A stretch of 64,000 nucleotides of DNA, taken from contig JBFWQX010000009.1 of the NCBI GenBank assembly GCA_050249215.1, positions 36,368-100,367 on the forward strand. The letters run 5' to 3'. The stretch comes from Afipia sp. (lineage in GTDB: Bacteria > Pseudomonadota > Alphaproteobacteria > Rhizobiales > Xanthobacteraceae). The position numbers were made by a program, and so were the translations under genes. The notes under the pieces are model-generated. The model searched no databases. It was given only the letters and a program-made list of their open reading frames with translations, and was not told the DNA's origin. Below are positions 17,426 through 64,000 of the stretch, one piece after another; the first letter of the stretch is position 1, and each line of letters starts with the position of its first letter.

Positions 17426-17524
17426 GACGTCATGCCCGGGCTTGTCCCGGGCATCCACGTCTTTGGGTCTTCATCATCGGCGAAGTAAGACGTGGATGGC
17501 CGGAATAAATCCGGCCATGACGAC
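17426..17524. repeat. pair of inverted REP-like palindromes (GACGTCATGCCCGGGC...GCCCGGGCATCCACGTC type)
   Basis: The two units are gacgtcatgcccgggcttgtcccgggcatccacgtc (17426-17461) and gacgtggatggccggaataaatccggccatgacgac (17489-17524). The same family occurs at 24453-24488. Confidence 0.8.
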
Positions 17525-17554
17525 AGAAATTTCTCGCTGATACAGGACCGCCTT

Positions 17555-19260: not shown

Positions 19261-19535
19261 CGGCGCCGTAAGCGCGTTTACGCGCGTCTTTGACGCGCTA
19301 TGGCGCCGTCCGATGACAGGCTCCGGTCGGGCCCCATAAACACCGGACGATCTCCCCGTCCGTCATTCCGGGGCGCGCAAAGCGCGAACCCGGAATCCAT
19401 TTCTCCAACATTCCGATGGATTCCGGGTTCGCTCGCAAGTGTGCGAGCGCCCCGGAATGACGGGTGATGTATCGTGCCTCAACACGCTTGTCCGTCATCC
19501 TGAGGTGCGAGCATTCGCGAGCCTCAAAGGATGAC
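19261..19535. repeat. cluster of REP-like palindromes of three families
   Basis: Unit 1 is ggcgccgtaagcgcg...gcgctatggcgcc (19261-19308). Unit 2 is an inverted pair cgtcattccggggcgcgc...gcgaacccggaatcc / ggattccgggttcgc...cgccccggaatgacg (19361-19463). Unit 3 is gtcatcctgaggtgcgagc..gcgagcctcaaaggatgac (19494-19535). Confidence 0.8.
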
Positions 19536-19542
19536 CAGACCC

Positions 19543-19570
19543 TTGACATTTCCCAATCTAGGAATATAAT
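19543..19570 (+). promoter_or_regulatory. near-consensus sigma70 promoter of RNA element copy A
   Basis: TTGACA (19543-19548), a 16-nt spacer, then TATAAT (19565-19570). Similarity to copy B begins exactly at the -35 hexamer. Confidence 0.65.
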
Positions 19571-19574
19571 CCGC

Positions 19575-19992
19575 ATCATCCTGTTCGTGAGGGGCGCTTC
19601 TCGAGGGCGCTTTGAAGCGGAACAGGATGCGGCGCCTGCGCGCACGGTTCGCACCCGTTGCGTCCGGGAGGCTGGGGCCAGCGTCCGGGCCAACTACGTG
19701 GCTCTGCCGTTCGCGGCTGCACGAGATGGAGATGAAGGCAGGGAAATCTGCCGGATCAGGGTTCGCCCGTCCCATCCGGAAGCACGCTCCCCTCACCTAA
19801 AATCGCCGCAATGGAGCGCCGTAAGGCGACGCGCTTTCGGAGTCACATCGCCTCGCACGCGATGCCGGAAGCGAAACAACATATTTGCGCCTCGCGGCGC
19901 TCCATGCCCCTCATTGTTCAAGGGGCGCAACGACAACTCACCTCGCGCGATGCGTGGGAACAAGTGCGCGTGGCTGTTTGAAAATTGAATCG
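19575..19992 (+). ncRNA. candidate structured non-coding RNA, copy A (family unassigned)
   Basis: Duplicated at 63285-63745 on the minus strand. No conserved ORF. Multiple hairpins are supported by compensatory differences between the copies (details in findings). The 5' end is inferred from the promoter. The 3' end is taken as the end of inter-copy similarity (GCTGTTTGAAAATTGAATCG). Confidence 0.55.
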
Positions 19993-20019
19993 AAAGCGCA
20001 CCTCATCGCCTGCAGGCGA

Positions 20020-20877
20020 TCACGGTTTTGTCTCGCCGGCCTTCTTCACCGCATCCGCCAGCGACATTTTTGCCGAGCCCCGCTTCAGCGGCTTCTGCTG
20101 GCTCTCATGCGGCGCCCAGCCCGACATCCAGACAATGTCGAAGGTGGCGCGGATGCGTCCGTCCGGATCGGAGAAACGCTCCGCATAAATCTGCGCCATC
20201 TTCAGGAACGTCGCGCGGCGTGACGGCGTGCGGCGGCGCTCGTTCAGAATGTTGGTCGCGCCCATCCGCCGCAAATCCTGCATCAACGCAAACGCGTTGT
20301 CGTAACGCACGACAATGCGGTCCACATCCGTCACCGGCAGCGCAAAGCCCGCCCGCTGCAACAGGGCTCCGAGATCGCGCAAATCCGCGAACGGGACGAC
20401 GCGCGGCGAGAGACCGCCTTCCACTTCGGCTTCCGCAGCCGCAAAGGATTGCCTTAACTCGGTGAGCGTATCGCCGCCGATCATCGCCGCGAGGAACAAA
20501 CCATCGGGTTTCAGCGCGCGGCGGATTTGCGCCAGCACCCCAGGCAAGTCGTTGACGAACTGCAGCGCAAGCGCGGAGACCACGAGATCGAAGGACGCCG
20601 GCGGCAGCGCCAATGGCTCGCTATCGGACACCGGCAACGCCGCCGCGCGCAACTGCTTGACTCGACGGGCCAGTAGGTTGCGCACCTGATCACCGGGCGT
20701 GCCGAGATCGGCACCATCGGAAAATTCACGCAGCACCGCCTGCTGCCGCTCCGCCATATCCTCCGCAACACGCTCAAGCAGGAATGACTCGGCGCCTTGA
20801 CGCGCAGCGCGGTTTTGCCGGTCGCGCAGCAAGGCACGATCAAACAGGCGCGGCAGATCGGTCGGGGATGAACTCAT
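20020..20877 (-). CDS. class I SAM-dependent methyltransferase (BioC/NDUFAF5-like)
   Basis: Start placed at ATG 20877 (MSSSPTDLPRLFDRALLRDRQNRAA). Contains FDLVVSALALQFVNDLPGVLAQIRRALKPDGLFLAAMIGGDTLTELR. Sits in the conserved position next to comF/grxC. Confidence 0.85.
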   Translation of the reverse strand: MSSSPTDLPRLFDRALLRDRQNRAARQGAESFLLERVAEDMAERQQAVLREFSDGADLGTPGDQVRNLLARRVKQLRAAALPVSDSEPLALPPASFDLVVSALALQFVNDLPGVLAQIRRALKPDGLFLAAMIGGDTLTELRQSFAAAEAEVEGGLSPRVVPFADLRDLGALLQRAGFALPVTDVDRIVVRYDNAFALMQDLRRMGATNILNERRRTPSRRATFLKMAQIYAERFSDPDGRIRATFDIVWMSGWAPHESQQKPLKRGSAKMSLADAVKKAGETKP

Positions 20878-20976
20878 GGGCGGTAGGTACGCCCTCGGAC
20901 GCCTATCTGGCAATTCCCTGTCGGCGCGCTTGTCTCCCACACGCACCGGAACTAGCCTCTGGATGCGGGGAAGATC

Positions 20977-21798
20977 ATGTCGGAGCTGGATCAGGCATCG
21001 TCGCATTCTTCAGGCCGGTGGCGCGGGCGATTCCGCGGCACACTGAAAGCCTGCGGCGTGGCGCTCGCCGCGCTTCCGCGCGCGGCGCTCGACATCGCGC
21101 TCCCCACACTCTGCGTCGCCTGCCATGAGCCCGTCACAGGCGACGGCGTCTGCGCGGCGTGCTGGGGCAAACTCTCGTTCATAGCGCCACCGTTCTGCGC
21201 ACGGCTCGGCATTCCCTTTGTCTACGATCCGGGACCTGGCCTGCTGTCGATGCAGGCGATCGCCGATCCGCCGGCCTATCAGCGCGCCCGCGCCGCGGTC
21301 CGCTACGATGAGGTGGCGCGCACCATGGTCCATGCGCTCAAGTATCAGGATCGCACCGATCTCGCGCCGGCCATGGGCCGCTGGATGGCCCGCGCCGGTC
21401 AGGAACTTCTCGCTGACGCCGATGCCCTTGTTCCGGTGCCACTGCACTGGCGGCGCGGCTGGAGCCGCCGCTACAACCAGTCGGGCGCACTGGCAGGGGT
21501 GATCGGCAAGTCGGCGCGGCTGCCGGTGATCGGAAATGTCCTGCGGCGCGTCCGCCCGACGCTGCAACAGGTCGGTCTTTCCAAGGCGGACCGTGCACTC
21601 AACGTGCAGGGCGCGTTCAAGGTGCCTCCGGAGAGCAAATCTTCCGTGCAGGGCCGCCGGATCGTGCTGGTTGACGATGTTTTGACCTCCGGCGCCACCG
21701 TCGACGCCTGCGCACGCGCGCTGCTGCGGGCCAGGGCTGCGTCCGTGGACGTGCTGGTGTTCGCCCGGGTTGTGGACACCGTTCAGACCCCCATATAA
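20977..21798 (+). CDS. comF: ComF family protein (phosphoribosyltransferase-like)
   Basis: 273-aa ORF with N-terminal Cys pairs (CVACHEPV...CAACW) and the PRTase motif RIVLVDDVLTSGATVDACARAL. Confidence 0.85.
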   Translation: MSELDQASSHSSGRWRGRFRGTLKACGVALAALPRAALDIALPTLCVACHEPVTGDGVCAACWGKLSFIAPPFCARLGIPFVYDPGPGLLSMQAIADPPAYQRARAAVRYDEVARTMVHALKYQDRTDLAPAMGRWMARAGQELLADADALVPVPLHWRRGWSRRYNQSGALAGVIGKSARLPVIGNVLRRVRPTLQQVGLSKADRALNVQGAFKVPPESKSSVQGRRIVLVDDVLTSGATVDACARALLRARAASVDVLVFARVVDTVQTPI

Positions 21799-24368: not shown

Positions 24369-24488
24369 CATGTCGTGGCCGGGCATAGCCCGTCGAAGAC
24401 GGGCGTGAACGCCTTTTCTCCCCGCCATCCACGACGTGTTTGTAAAAGAGAAGACGTGGATGCCCGGCACAAGGCCGGGCATGACGAC
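24369..24488. repeat. two REP-like palindromes
   Basis: The two units are gtcgtggccgggcatagcccgtcgaagacgggcgtgaacgcc...ccatccacgac (24369-24438) and gacgtggatgcccggcacaaggccgggcatgacgac (24453-24488). The second belongs to the same family as 17426-17524. Confidence 0.75.
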
Positions 24489-24521
24489 TGAACAAGATGC
24501 TCTCTTGCGAAGGACATGAGC

Positions 24522-62212: not shown

Positions 62213-63262
62213 ATGGCCATTTTTTCGCGCACTTTCGGGACCGGTCTGACGATCGGCGCGGTGATTGCTGTCGCGGTCGCAGCCGCCGCGATCACCTATG
62301 AGCGCTACGATACCCGCACCCTCAAGCGCACCGTGAAACGCGACGCCGTGCTTTGCGGCGTGAACACCGGCCTGCCCGGCTTCTCGATCCCGGACGACAA
62401 AGGCAACTGGTCCGGCTTCGATGTCGATATCTGCCGCGCCGTGGCCGCCGCGATCTTCAACGATCCGACCAAGGTGAAGTTCGTTCCGCTCGACGCCAGC
62501 GAGCGCTTCAAGGAACTGCGCAACCGCAAGGTCGATATCCTGTCGCGCAATTCGACATGGAGCATGTCGCGCGAAACCGAGTACGGCCTGAACTTCGCCG
62601 CCGTCGCCTATTACGACGGCGAAGGTTTCATGGTGCGCCAGTCCCGCAAGATCGACTCGGCGCTCGAACTGGACGGCAGCAAGGTCTGCGTTCAGGCCGG
62701 CACCACGACACAGCTCAATCTCGCGGATTATTTCCGCGCCAACAACATCAAGTATCAGGAACTGAATTTCCCGAAGCTCGACGCGGTGTTGCAGGCCTAT
62801 GACTCGGGCCAGTGCGATGTCCTCACCACCGACGTGTCGCAGCTCTACGCGCTGCGGCTGCGGCTGACCAAGCCGGCCGAACACGTGATCCTGCCCGACG
62901 TCATCTCGAAGGAGCCGCTCGCACCGGTGGTCCGCCAGCGCGACGACGAGTGGCTGCTGATCGTGAAGTGGACGATCTACGCCATGCTGAACGCCGAAGA
63001 ACTCGGCGTCACCTCCAAGAATATCGACGAGGCGCTGAAGTCGAAGAAGCCGGACATCATGCGGCTGCTCGGCACCGAAGGCGCCTATGGCGAGGAAATG
63101 GATCTGACACGGGACTGGGCCGCGCGCATCATCCGCCATGTCGGCAACTACGGCGAAGTGTACGACCGCAATGTCGGCGAGGGATCGAAGCTCAAGATTC
63201 CGCGCGGGCTGAACCAGCTCTGGAATGCCGGCGGCATCCAGTACGCGCCGCCGATCCGCTAG
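62213..63262 (+). CDS. aapJ: amino-acid ABC transporter substrate-binding protein (general L-amino-acid, AapJ-like)
   Basis: 349-aa ORF with LCGVNTGLPGFSIPDDKGNWSGFDVDICRAVAAAIFNDPTKVKFVPL...DILSRNSTWSMSRE...YYDGEGFMV. Confidence 0.85.
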   Translation: MAIFSRTFGTGLTIGAVIAVAVAAAAITYERYDTRTLKRTVKRDAVLCGVNTGLPGFSIPDDKGNWSGFDVDICRAVAAAIFNDPTKVKFVPLDASERFKELRNRKVDILSRNSTWSMSRETEYGLNFAAVAYYDGEGFMVRQSRKIDSALELDGSKVCVQAGTTTQLNLADYFRANNIKYQELNFPKLDAVLQAYDSGQCDVLTTDVSQLYALRLRLTKPAEHVILPDVISKEPLAPVVRQRDDEWLLIVKWTIYAMLNAEELGVTSKNIDEALKSKKPDIMRLLGTEGAYGEEMDLTRDWAARIIRHVGNYGEVYDRNVGEGSKLKIPRGLNQLWNAGGIQYAPPIR

Positions 63263-63284: not shown

Positions 63285-63745
63285 CGATTCAGTTTTCAAA
63301 CAGCATGCGCGTGCGGGGCTTGCCCCATGCGCGCTCAACCAAAGACATGCGCATTCGTTCTCGCGCGTGGCGCGAGGTGCGCTCTCGTTTTGCCCCATCG
63401 CAATGAGGGGGCATGGAGCGCCGCAAGGCGCATTGGATAGAGTTTCGCTTCCGGCATCGCGTGCGAGGCGATGTGTCTCCGAAAGCGCGTCGCCTCACGG
63501 CGCTCCATCGCGGCGATTTTGGGCAAGGGGACCGTGCTTCCGGATGGGACGGGCGAACCCTGATCCGGCGATTTTCATCGCCTTCATCTCCATCTCGTGC
63601 AGCCGCAAGCGGCAGAGCCACGTAGTTGGCCCGGACGGTGACCCCAGCCTCCCGGACGCGTGGTTGCGAACCACATCGCGCAGGCGCCGCATCCTGCTCC
63701 GCTCTCAAGACGCCTCTAGACAGCGCCCCTCGCGAGCAGGACGAC
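63285..63745 (-). ncRNA. candidate structured non-coding RNA, copy B (family unassigned)
   Basis: The reverse complement aligns with 19575-19992 along its whole length, with the same helices and compensatory changes. It carries an extra ~40 nt in the 3' third. It ends next to the aapJ-like stop. Confidence 0.55.
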
Positions 63746-63749
63746 GCGG

Positions 63750-63777
63750 ACTATATTCCTAAATCGGGAGATGTCAA
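63750..63777 (-). promoter_or_regulatory. sigma70-type promoter of RNA element copy B
   Basis: On the minus strand: TTGACA (63777-63772), a 16-nt spacer, then TATAGT (63755-63750). The sequence upstream of the -35 is unrelated to copy A. Confidence 0.6.
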
Positions 63778-63808
63778 GACAATCGTCAGGATCGTGATGG
63801 CCCAACAC

Positions 63809-63975
63809 CGTCATTCCGGGGCGCGCGCAGCGCGAGCCCGGAATCCACAATCACTTTCAGGATTCGAGGGAGGATGGATTCCGGGCCTGCGCCTGCGGCG
63901 CATCCCGGAATGACAAGCAGAGACATCGCGTCATCCTGAGGCGCAAGCCGCGTTTGCGGCGAGCCTCGAAGGATG
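63809..63975. repeat. cluster of REP-like palindromes (same two families as 19361-19535)
   Basis: The first unit is an inverted pair cgtcattccggggcgcgc..gcgagcccggaatcc / ggattccgggcctgcgc..gcgcatcccggaatgac (63809-63914). The second is gtcatcctgaggcgcaagc..ggcgagcctcgaaggatg (63930-63975). Confidence 0.8.
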
Positions 63976-64000
63976 CGCGGCAAACACGATGGATGTTGCG

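What the first reader, a model, noticed from the sequence alone, without database searches (positions are those of the whole stretch)
19543..19992. Promoter-driven ~420-nt structured non-coding RNA candidate, copy A (no family I can assign)
This intergenic block is duplicated at 63285-63777 on the other strand. The similarity has sharp, functional-looking borders. It begins exactly at a near-consensus sigma70 promoter (TTGACA 19543-19548, 16-nt spacer, TATAAT 19565-19570). It ends at a shared GCTGTTTGAAAAYTGAATCG near 19992. The sequence outside these borders is unrelated between the loci. No RBS or ORF is conserved. The long track ORFs covering it (19464..19988 + and 63289..63708 -) agree only where the nucleotides agree. 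A 1-nt length difference (A gaaacaacatatttgcgcc, 19873-19891, versus B gaaactctatccaatgcgcc) shifts the frame, yet nucleotide identity resumes afterwards (GCGGCGCTCCATGCCCC). The small internal ORF MEMKA... has different stops in the two copies. The transcript is packed with hairpins:
- 19577-19586 pairs with 19620-19629.
- gccg-UUCG-cggc at 19706-19717.
- ggcag-ggaaat-ctgcc at 19737-19752.
- ccggat...ggg-UUCG-ccc...atccgg at 19751-19779.
- cgcc-GUAA-ggcg at 19817-19828.
- A 9-bp stem 19832-19840 / 19865-19873 enclosing catcgc-ctcgcac-gcgatg at 19846-19864.
- gcccc...ggggc at 19906-19926.
It lacks the signatures I know for RNase P, tmRNA (no tag ORF, no T-arm/CCA), SRP, 6S, cobalamin or SAM riboswitches, and group II intron domain V. 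A large, promoter-equipped, multi-helix RNA present in two diverged copies is unusual for a housekeeping region.
Basis: partly seen in the sequence, partly recalled or inferred. Interest (0 to 1): 0.8.

Follow-up and report, generated by a model that had tools for sequence, protein, structure and literature searches.

The report
New multicopy large structured RNA family
The two duplicated intergenic blocks are stand-alone genes for a roughly 420-460-nt, many-helix non-coding RNA that matches no catalogued family, occurs in several copies on single long contigs of Afipia-type soil bacteria, and elsewhere forms the leader of an uncharacterised small cysteine/arginine-rich protein gene.

Summary
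Window 19543-19992 (+) and 63285-63777 (-) are about 83-88% identical. The similarity starts at a 12/12 sigma-70 promoter and ends at GCTGTTTGAAAAYTGAATC.

No ORF is conserved and Rfam 15 gives no hit. Using spurious-ORF protein hits and one metagenome scan I collected about 125 homologues, 77 of them non-redundant. A 107-bp, roughly 20-helix structure is 95.5% paired, against 42-51% in slid controls, and 48 pairs show changes on both sides. G·U pairs fix the strand to the promoter's direction.

- **Distribution:** the family was found only in Afipia-clade Nitrobacteraceae, with at least 5 copies on one 2.8-Mb contig. It has no target-site duplications or terminal inverted repeats, and no hits in viral contigs or plasmids.
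- **Promoters:** copies carry one of two promoter modules.
- **Protein link:** all nine fetched loci encoding a roughly 100-115-aa Cx4Cx5Cx6C/Arg-rich protein have the RNA directly upstream. The protein has no Pfam hit and no PDB fold match.
- **Window copies:** both are ORF-less, face convergent genes, and persist at orthologous loci in other species.

Best reading: these are functional stand-alone RNAs, most likely protein-binding partners or decoys of that small protein. The mechanism is inferred, not shown.

The parts
19543..19570 (+). Copy A promoter: -35 TTGACA (19543-19548), 16-nt spacer, -10 TATAAT (19565-19570). The predicted transcription start is near 19577, which is inferred.
   Evidence: One search gives a 12/12 consensus match. 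The same module (TTGACA in 47 of 49, spacer of 16-17 nt, -10 of TATATT/TATAGT/TATAAT) sits in front of 49 of 92 full-length homologues.
19577..19992 (+). Copy A RNA body, an ORF-less stand-alone member. The 3' end is not mapped and may run to the hairpin plus TTTT at 20005-20029.
   Evidence: nhmmer scores 391-443 bits over the full model. MFE z-score is -3.27. It is row 1 of alignment A5.
19578..19628 (+). 5' hairpin domain: P1 19578-19586/19620-19628 enclosing P2 19591-19597/19607-19613.
   Evidence: In P1, 7 of 9 pairs change on both sides (for example UA60/CG15). In P2, G-C and G-U alternate (helices 1-2).
19629..19809 (+). Central multi-branch domain, closed by P3 19629-19632/19806-19809. 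It contains:
- P4 hairpin 19635-19647/19655-19668, with loop UUCGCAC.
- P5 19674-19684/19784-19792.
- The invariant hairpin Ha 19687-19692/19699-19704, with loop ACUACG.
- Hb 19706-19708/19715-19717.
- P7 19722-19728/19773-19778.
- Hc 19737-19741/19748-19752, GGAAAU loop here; the family has an invariant GAAA.
- Hd 19753-19761/19766-19772.
   Evidence: helices 3-14. Examples: P7 pair GC40/CG36; P5b pair CG51/GC15/UA9; P4c pairs GC27/AU21 and UA37/CG23. Ha and the Hc GAAA are invariant in all 77 sequences.
19812..19904 (+). 3' long arm: P8 19812-19828/19888-19904, P9 19832-19837/19868-19873, P10 19838-19840/19865-19867, P11 19846-19851/19859-19864 with loop CUCGCAC.
   Evidence: helices 15-17: 14 pairs change on both sides and 94.5-98.4% of cells are paired. 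The loop motif UCGCA is present in 59 of 77 sequences here and 63 of 77 in P4c.
19907..19958 (+). Hairpins P12 (19907-19911/19921-19925) and P13 (19942-19948/19952-19958). Their loops host length variation in relatives.
   Evidence: helices 18-20. Insertions of 33-45 nt occur in relatives.
19973..19991 (+). Conserved A/U-rich 3' tail GCTGTTTGAAAATTGAATC. It marks ORF-less members and aligns with the pre-Shine-Dalgarno region of ORF-linked paralogues.
   Evidence: Present in 80 of 92 full-length copies.
63750..63777 (-). Copy B promoter: -35 TTGACA (63777-63772), 16-nt spacer, -10 TATAGT (63755-63750).
63285..63745 (-). Copy B RNA body, also ORF-less. It has the same helices, carries about 45 extra nt as an additional hairpin (about 63345-63305) before the tail at 63304-63286, and is convergent with the ABC substrate-binding gene at 62213-63262.
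   Evidence: nhmmer scores 362-407 bits. MFE z-score is -3.13. Compensatory changes relative to copy A are visible in P1, P4c, P5b and Hc. The same extra hairpin occurs in at least 8 other loci.

Best explanation
Both blocks are independent genes for a large non-coding RNA, roughly 420 nt in copy A and 460 nt in copy B. Each is transcribed from its own consensus sigma-70 promoter. They belong to a multicopy RNA family, not in Rfam 15, found here only in Afipia-clade Nitrobacteraceae.

The RNA folds into a 5' hairpin, a central multi-branch domain with an invariant hairpin and an invariant GAAA tetraloop, a long 3' arm, two further hairpins and an A/U-rich tail. It acts as RNA.

The same RNA, on the same strand, is the obligatory leader of a small Cx4Cx5Cx6C/Arg-rich protein gene in paralogous modules. 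The window copies lack any ORF.

My preferred mechanism is inferred, not shown. The small protein recognises the conserved RNA core. Candidate contacts are the invariant hairpin and the two UCGCA apical loops. In its own leader this would give autoregulation. The numerous strongly transcribed ORF-less copies, including the two here, would act in trans as binding partners, scaffolds or decoys that set the level of free protein. This is a CsrB-like or OLE-like ribonucleoprotein logic.

Sub-confidences: structured, functional non-coding RNA family about 0.9; stand-alone trans-acting role for the window copies about 0.6; the small protein as the partner about 0.3.
For: - **Promoter and borders:**
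- **No conserved ORF:** 1-nt indels between copies. The AUG of the internal ORFs is not conserved.
- **Not a known family:** no Rfam hit and no tRNA or tmRNA.
- **Structure:** 77 non-redundant homologues are 95.5% paired against 42-51% in slid controls. 48 pairs change on both sides against 14-23. No shuffle in 500 reaches the observed values.
- **Strand:** at least 540 G·U cells, including an invariant G·U in the invariant hairpin, fix the strand to the promoter's direction.
- **Copy number:** at least 5, 4 and 2 copies on three contigs of 2.84, 1.23 and 0.22 Mb.
- **Persistence:** copy A's locus (ArgJ, NUDIX, element, methyltransferase, ComF, glutaredoxin) is kept in another species (L006). 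Copy B's upstream flank recurs at L094. Paralogues are only about 83% identical, so the duplicates are old and maintained.
- **Protein link:** all nine fetched loci encoding the small protein, including subfamilies only 20-35% identical, have the RNA ending roughly 15-55 nt before the start codon (nhmmer 234-267 bits for the uncut loci). The RNA core is more conserved than the protein.
- **Protein features:** four invariant Cys plus invariant or near-invariant Arg. The AlphaFold model is confident (pLDDT 81) and has no PDB fold match.
- **Repeated loop motif:** UCGCA occurs in two apical loops (63 of 77 and 59 of 77), against 0.6 expected per 430 nt.
Against: - No expression data were available, so the transcription start, the 3' end and RNA abundance are all inferred.
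- No canonical intrinsic terminator was found after the tail.
- RNA-protein binding is pure inference from gene adjacency. Adjacency is equally explained by ordinary cis-regulation of the ORF.
- I could not show that the window's own genome encodes the small protein. None lies within the 64 kb.
- Forty of 92 copies use a second upstream module whose promoter logic I could not resolve.
- Some covariation counts are inflated by shared ancestry.
Confidence: 0.55

Rival explanations
1. Riboswitch-like or condition-sensing RNA. The conserved core would bind a small ligand or sense a physical signal such as redox state, metal or temperature. In ORF-linked modules it would gate translation of the small protein. 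ORF-less copies would be sensor-derived trans RNAs, analogous to SreA/SreB or EutX/Rli55.
For: The fold is large and pre-organised, with an invariant GAAA tetraloop and invariant junction nucleotides. It is always the 5' leader of one gene family. Neighbouring genes are stress-related: an rpoH-like sigma factor, MsrA/MsrB and a GreA-like protein.
Against: At 420-550 nt it is far larger than known riboswitch aptamers. No conserved expression platform was found: the anti-Shine-Dalgarno pairing I tested by eye is not kept across protein subfamilies (sequences). Most copies control no gene. No ligand candidate emerges from the context.
Confidence: 0.2
2. Non-functional relics. ORF-less copies would be decaying partial duplicates (promoter, leader and first codons) of the small-protein gene with no role of their own.
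For: The tail and the semi-conserved downstream GGAAAGTCGAAGTGACGC resemble the A/U-rich pre-Shine-Dalgarno region, the Shine-Dalgarno sequence and the start codon of ORF-linked paralogues. The copies lie in REP-rich intergenic DNA.
Against: Helices are kept through compensatory changes among ORF-less copies. Consensus promoters are kept: 47 of 49 have TTGACA. The ORF-less-specific tail is conserved in 80 of 92 copies. Copies persist at orthologous loci across species at about 84% identity.
Confidence: 0.1
3. Non-autonomous mobile element, either MITE/REP-like or an orphan transposon guide RNA (omega-RNA or reRNA-like) whose 3' end reads into flanking DNA.
For: Many copies lie at non-syntenic sites with sharp borders. 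REP elements flank them. Two A. clevelandensis copies are 98% identical over 763 nt. The layout, with the promoter inside the element and the conserved scaffold ending at the 3' border, recalls TnpB reRNAs.
Against: Direct-repeat lengths at the borders equal the shuffled control, and there are no terminal inverted repeats. No transposase, TnpB or IscB gene is adjacent. There are no HEARO or other Rfam hits. The sequence just past the 3' border is semi-conserved rather than guide-like. Several loci are positionally conserved between species.
Confidence: 0.05
4. A small protein-coding gene covering the block.
For: Long ORFs exist on both strands and have been called as hypothetical proteins in public annotations.
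Against: Frames differ between copies because of 1-nt indels. ORF starts and stops are not conserved. All 29 'homologous proteins' come from single or very few sequences (1-3 members) and have no Pfam domains. The substitution pattern is compensatory in stems, not 3-periodic. This is a 63% G+C genome, where chance ORFs are long.
Confidence: 0.02

Closest known systems
OLE RNA with its adjacent oapA gene (Firmicutes). This comparison rests on my own knowledge of the literature.
   Same: Both are large, multi-helix, highly conserved non-coding RNAs of unknown chemistry. In both, the RNA lies immediately upstream of a gene for a small dedicated protein, implying a ribonucleoprotein.
   Different: There is no sequence or structure match: the Rfam OLE model gives no hit. 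OLE is single-copy and roughly 610 nt, sits inside an operon, and its partner is a membrane protein. Here there are several copies on single contigs, most without the gene, each with its own sigma-70 promoter, and the partner candidate is a soluble Cys4/Arg-rich helical protein.
CsrB/RsmZ-type protein-sequestering RNAs
   Same: Both are stand-alone, strongly transcribed RNAs of several hundred nucleotides that display a repeated short loop motif (here UCGCA in two apical loops). Paralogous copies and a proposed titration logic are also shared.
   Different: GGA is only mildly enriched (9-11 against about 6 expected per 420 nt). Only two motif copies are present rather than 9-22. The rest of the RNA is a rigid conserved fold. 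No CsrA link exists.
Riboswitch- or leader-derived trans RNAs (SreA/SreB, EutX/Rli55) and autoregulatory ribosomal-protein leaders
   Same: The same RNA element exists both as a 5' leader of a gene and as an ORF-less transcript.
   Different: The size is 3-5 times larger. No known aptamer matches. ORF-less copies far outnumber gene-linked ones.
Chromosomal type I toxin-antitoxin mRNAs such as hok/sok
   Same: Both are multicopy chromosomal modules with strong promoters, roughly 400-nt highly folded RNAs, and many truncated or ORF-less copies.
   Different: The encoded protein is 100-115 aa, soluble and Cys/Arg-rich, not a hydrophobic peptide of 60 aa or fewer. The structure lies upstream of the ORF, not over it. 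No antisense RNA promoter was seen, and there is no PADLOC hit.
Br-REP2 and other REP elements of Bradyrhizobiaceae (PMC5082802)
   Same: Both are repeated intergenic sequences in the same bacterial family. REPs directly flank the element.
   Different: REPs are 20-40-nt palindromes present at 50-200 sites. This element is a 420-550-nt promoter-equipped RNA gene with about 20 helices.

Membership tests
Any Rfam 15 family, including RNase P, tmRNA, SRP, 6S, OLE, HEARO, ROOL, GOLLD, raiA, group II intron and riboswitches | A covariance-model score at or above the family's gathering threshold | tested here: not met
   There are 0 hits on the whole window. In E-value mode only noise appears on 19300-20200 and on 10 diverse homologues, with no family recurring inside the element. 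ARAGORN finds no tRNA or tmRNA.
Structured non-coding RNA (generic) | A secondary structure conserved through compensatory substitutions, on one strand | tested here: met
   Across 107 pairs, 95.5% of cells are paired against 42-51% in slid controls, and 48 pairs change on both sides against 14-23. No shuffle in 500 reaches the observed values. Abundant G·U pairs make the fold strand-specific.
Protein-coding gene | A reading frame, start and stop conserved among homologues | tested here: not met
   Frames are shifted by 1-nt indels between copies. The 29 ORF 'proteins' come from 1-3 sequences each and have no domains.
Cis-regulatory leader or riboswitch | A co-oriented gene immediately downstream | tested here: not met
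   For the two window copies the downstream genes are convergent: 20020-21006 on the minus strand and 62213-63262 on the plus strand. This feature is met in paralogues upstream of the small Cys4 protein gene.
MITE or other non-autonomous transposon | Terminal inverted repeats and target-site duplications | tested here: not met
   For 73 copies, the border direct-repeat length distribution equals the shuffled control. The best terminal inverted match is 4 nt.
Transposon-encoded guide RNA (omega-RNA or reRNA) | Association with IscB, TnpB or a transposase, and a variable guide at the element border | tested here: not met
   No such gene appears in any of the contexts read. The sequence 3' of the border is semi-conserved.
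Classical trans-acting sRNA | Its own promoter plus a Rho-independent terminator, with a length of 50-300 nt | tested here: inconclusive
   The promoter requirement is met. No canonical terminator was detected; only a hairpin plus TTTT at 20005-20029, which overlaps the end of the convergent gene. The length is above the usual range.
Phage- or plasmid-borne element | Presence in viral or plasmid records | tested here: not met
   The 21-mer has 0 matches in IMG/VR. blastn finds no match in PLSDB.
Ribonucleoprotein with the adjacent small protein (OLE/OapA-like logic) | Physical binding of the protein to the RNA | not testable with these tools
   Only strict genomic linkage in ORF-linked paralogues is shown.

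The most novel reading that the evidence does not exclude
This is a previously unrecognised ribonucleoprotein system of Afipia-clade bacteria. A large tertiary-structured RNA is kept in several to about ten transcribed copies per genome. It works with a dedicated small Cys4/Arg-rich protein of novel predicted fold, possibly metal- or redox-sensitive, given the four invariant cysteines and neighbours such as rpoH, msrA and msrB. The gene-linked copy would autoregulate the protein, and the stand-alone copies would buffer or execute its function.
Probability: 0.3. Interest if true: 0.85.

Novelty: new variant of a known kind. Interest (0 to 1): 0.72.

Why it matters
Large bacterial RNAs with complex conserved folds are rare. 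Examples are OLE, GOLLD, ROOL, HEARO and raiA. Each one found so far has led to new biochemistry or remains an open problem.

This family adds several features:
- A roughly 20-helix fold with strong covariation.
- An unusual multicopy arrangement in which every copy has its own promoter.
- Two interchangeable promoter modules.
- A strict evolutionary link to an uncharacterised small Cys4/Arg-rich protein with no fold relative in the PDB.

It is directly testable, because cultured Afipia strains such as A. clevelandensis ATCC 49720 and A. massiliensis carry it. It should also be added to Rfam, both so that the spurious 'hypothetical proteins' now annotated over it can be removed and so that the small real ORF downstream of some copies is annotated correctly.

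Tried and rejected
- **First genome-collection scan:** the 20-mer GCACGAGATGGAGATGAAGG was too strict.
- **Whole-alignment RNAalifold:** it missed P1 and chose an invariant long-range GGGG/CCCC pairing, so I replaced that part by hand.
- **Brute-force scan of all column pairs:** this was uninformative, because too many chance G-rich and C-rich column matches appeared.
- **CsrB-like GGA sponge idea:** GGA is only about 1.6-fold enriched.
- **Anti-Shine-Dalgarno switch between the P5 3' strand and the Shine-Dalgarno sequence of ORF-linked copies:** it is complementary in one protein subfamily but not in the others (sequences), so I dropped it.
- **Assigning the second promoter module** (GCAACATTTCGTGATGGGGAT-N4-ATCCCC...TATGTT) to EcfG, RpoH, sigma-54, FixK, LexA or MerR-type logic: none fits by eye, and it remains unresolved.
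- **Family and fold searches for the small protein:** Pfam, NCBIfam, PADLOC, PHROGs and Foldseek against the PDB gave nothing significant. DksA appears at E = 9.3, which is only a lead.
- **Literature searches:** exact RNA and protein motifs, and Afipia or Bradyrhizobiaceae sRNAs, found no description of this element. They found only the flanking REPs.
- **Covariance model:** I did not build one, because the element exceeds the 400-column limit. nhmmer profiles were sufficient.

Full report
**1. The observation**

The two blocks are real duplicates. Copy A (19543-19992, +) and copy B (63285-63777, -) align over about 440 nt. The core of 218 nt is 92% identical and the whole is about 83-88% identical, depending on gap treatment.

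Similarity begins at the -35 hexamer of a perfect sigma-70 promoter in A: TTGACA, 16 nt, TATAAT, a 12/12 match where shuffles give 0.2 sites. Copy B has TTGACA, 16 nt, TATAGT. Similarity ends at GCTGTTTGAAAAYTGAATC, and the flanks are unrelated.

Both copies face the 3' end of a convergent gene. For A this is a methyltransferase at 20020-21006 (-). For B it is an ABC substrate-binding protein at 62213-63262 (+). Neither copy can therefore be a leader. Each folds better than dinucleotide shuffles, with z-scores of -3.3 and -3.1. The two copies alone already show compensatory changes in four stems.

**2. Not a known family and not coding**

Rfam 15 gives nothing at gathering thresholds on the whole window. 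Relaxed thresholds give nothing consistent on the locus or on ten diverse homologues. ARAGORN finds no tRNA or tmRNA.

Long ORFs cover the block on both strands, as expected at 63% G+C. One-nucleotide indels shift the frame between copies, and internal AUGs are not conserved.

**3. Finding relatives**

An exact 20-mer scan of one genome per species hit only Afipia clevelandensis. It found two loci with flanks unrelated to the window and to each other beyond a recent 763-nt duplication.

I then translated copy A and searched the protein collection. Gene callers have repeatedly called spurious ORFs over this RNA. The search returned 29 such 'proteins', each from 1-3 sequences and without Pfam domains, from Afipia sp., A. 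massiliensis and metagenomes. Their contigs gave seven more loci.

The 21-mer is absent from IMG/VR, and blastn finds nothing in PLSDB. The window's own genome is GCA_050186355.1.

**4. Structure**

On the 77-sequence alignment (A5) I curated 107 base pairs in about 20 helices. The helices in copy A coordinates are:
- A 5' hairpin, P1 and P2.
- A central domain closed by P3. It contains the P4 hairpin and P5. It also holds an invariant hairpin with loop ACUAYG, a small GCC/GGC hairpin and P7. A hairpin with an invariant GAAA tetraloop and hairpin Hd complete the domain.
- A long 3' arm, P8 to P11.
- Hairpins P12 and P13.
- An A/U-rich tail.

Of all cells, 95.5% form standard pairs, against 42-51% when partners are slid by 1-3 columns. 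48 pairs show changes on both sides, against 14-23. No shuffle in 500 reaches any observed measure. Typical examples are GC40/CG36 in P7, CG51/GC15/UA9 in P5, and UA37/CG23 in P4c. Several hundred G·U cells, including an invariant G·U, make the fold specific to the promoter's strand.

Peripheral loops tolerate insertions of 21-45 nt, which is a hallmark of structured RNAs. Two apical loops carry the same motif, UCGCA, in 63 and 59 of 77 sequences, where 0.6 occurrences are expected per 430 nt.

The outer CCGGAT/ATCCGG stem is not conserved and is replaced by P7. The CGCC-GNRA-GGCG hairpin is an alternative to the inner part of P8, where one pair covaries (UG28/CG27/AU11/UA5).

**5. Genomic behaviour**

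The family is multicopy. At least 5, 4 and 2 copies lie on three contigs of 2.84, 1.23 and 0.22 Mb, and 6-10 on other assemblies. These are lower bounds.

Copies lie in different intergenic contexts, usually among REP elements of the Br-REP2 type described for Bradyrhizobiaceae (PMC5082802). There are no target-site duplications beyond the shuffled control and no terminal inverted repeats. No transposase is nearby.

Several loci are positionally conserved between species. Copy A's locus recurs in L006 and L081. Copy B's upstream flank recurs in L094. The EamA locus of A. clevelandensis recurs in L003 and L007. Paralogues within the window are only 83% identical, so these are old, maintained duplicates rather than recent insertions.

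**6. Two promoter modules**

Of the 92 full-length copies, 49 have the type-1 module. TTGACA occurs in 47 of these 49. The spacer is 16 or 17 nt, and the -10 element is TATATT, TATAGT, TATAAT or CATCCT.

Another 40 have a type-2 module: GCAACATTTCGTGATGGGGAT-N4-ATCCCC, followed about 17 nt later by TATGTT. The -10-like hexamer keeps its position, and a dyad lies at about -37.5. I could not assign the module to a known sigma factor or regulator.

Orthologous loci can carry different modules: window copy A is type 1 and L006 is type 2. Both modules coexist on the same contigs.

**7. Link to a small protein**

The lowest-scoring homologues lack the tail. Instead they run through a Shine-Dalgarno sequence into an ORF of about 100-115 aa.

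These ORFs form a genuine family of 96 clusters, all annotated 'hypothetical' and all from Afipia or Bradyrhizobiaceae. They share four invariant cysteines spaced Cx4Cx5Cx6C around a CRRARRC core, plus invariant or near-invariant arginines.

AlphaFold gives a confident model (pLDDT 81, pTM 0.73) with two long helices flanking the Cys knot. Foldseek finds no PDB relative. Pfam, NCBIfam, PADLOC and PHROGs are silent.

All nine fetched loci encoding a member, including subfamilies only 20-35% identical, have the RNA directly upstream (234-267 bits for the uncut loci). The RNA is thus better conserved than the protein.

These modules sit at stable loci. Their neighbours include an rpoH-like sigma factor, RluD and TctC, or DUF4112, MsrB, MsrA and a GreA-like gene.

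The tail of ORF-less copies aligns with the A/U-rich pre-Shine-Dalgarno stretch of ORF-linked leaders. This suggests that ORF-less copies arose as promoter-plus-leader duplicates. The window contains no such ORF.

**8. Interpretation**

Shown:
- A strand-specific, covariation-supported, promoter-equipped RNA family that is absent from Rfam 15 and from the literature I could search.
- The two window members are ORF-less and cannot act as leaders.

Inferred:
- They are transcribed, and they end near the tail or at the next hairpin.
- They act in trans.

My preferred mechanism, at a probability of about 0.3, is a ribonucleoprotein or titration system with the small Cys4/Arg-rich protein. In this model the leader copy gives autoregulation and the stand-alone copies act as partners or decoys. 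Rivals:
- A ligand- or condition-sensing RNA: about 0.2.
- Functionless relics: about 0.1. This is disfavoured by maintained stems, promoters, the tail and orthologous persistence.
- A mobile element or guide RNA: about 0.05.
- A coding gene: about 0.02.

**9. Novelty**

I file this as a new family within the known kind of large orphan structured bacterial RNAs. Its unusual features are multicopy dispersal with individual promoters, a dual existence as leader and stand-alone RNA, and linkage to a small protein with no fold relative in the PDB. If the RNA-protein partnership is real, it would be a new ribonucleoprotein system.

Noticed in passing
window 19344-19466 and 63800-63990 (for example 19360-19399 against 63808-63847): Both copies are preceded by palindromic REP elements (GTCATTCCGGGG...CCCGGAATGAC and CATCCTGAGG.../...CCTCAAAGGATGAC). 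These match the Br-REP2-type repeats described for Bradyrhizobiaceae (PMC5082802). They are general intergenic repeats and not part of the RNA.
   Followed up: partly
L003-L009 and many metagenome loci, about 60 nt upstream of the RNA (for example L006 5925-5986): A second, highly conserved upstream module, GCAACATTTCGTGATGGGGAT-N4-ATCCCC...TATGTT, replaces the consensus sigma-70 promoter in 40 of 92 copies, even at loci orthologous to window copy A. Most changes in the dyad arms are G·U-compatible on the sense strand. Its regulator or sigma factor is unknown.
   Followed up: partly
Alignment A5 columns 112-143, 318-356 and 360-398 (for example L107, L103, L028): A roughly 40-nt hairpin sequence (CAGTCAAGCTTGCGCAGACTGCGTAAACTTGTCTGCG and variants with GCAGAC...GTCTGC arms) is inserted at three different positions of the RNA in different copies. 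This suggests a tiny mobile or recombining stem-loop. A. clevelandensis carries a 21-nt relative at the first site.
   Followed up: no
L129 5001-5348, L132 5001-5417, L134 4001-4333, L136 4001-4303 (not in the window): An uncharacterised small protein family has invariant Cx4Cx5Cx6C and a CRRARRC core. Its confident AlphaFold model is a helical hairpin plus a Cys knot with no PDB fold match. The coiled-coil plus C4 layout loosely recalls DksA/TraR, but that match is not significant (E = 9.3).
   Followed up: partly
L001 7169-7929 against L002 215-973 (Afipia clevelandensis): The two copies in this genome are 98% identical over 763 nt, including about 95 nt upstream and about 240 nt downstream, although they lie 2.2 Mb apart. 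This indicates a recent duplication or gene conversion between copies.
   Followed up: partly
window 20005-20029: The hairpin ATCGCC-TGCA-GGCGAT, followed by CACGGTTTT, overlaps the stop codon of the convergent methyltransferase gene. It could serve as a bidirectional terminator and define the 3' end of copy A's transcript. The consensus scan did not flag it.
   Followed up: no
window 17487-17528 and 24451-24492: A 42-nt direct repeat at 83% identity (AAGACGTGGATGSCCGG...CCGGSCATGACGAC) contains a palindrome. One copy overlaps the start of the argJ-like ORF. It is probably another REP-type element.
   Followed up: no
Downstream of many ORF-less copies (for example L057, L110, L055, first 45 nt after GAATC): A semi-conserved extension, GGAAAGTCGAAGTGACGCACGC-N-GCAACACCCACGATCGTCA, runs into a REP element. 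It may be a relic of the Shine-Dalgarno sequence and start codon, or an extra 3' hairpin. It is only vestigial in the two window copies.
   Followed up: partly
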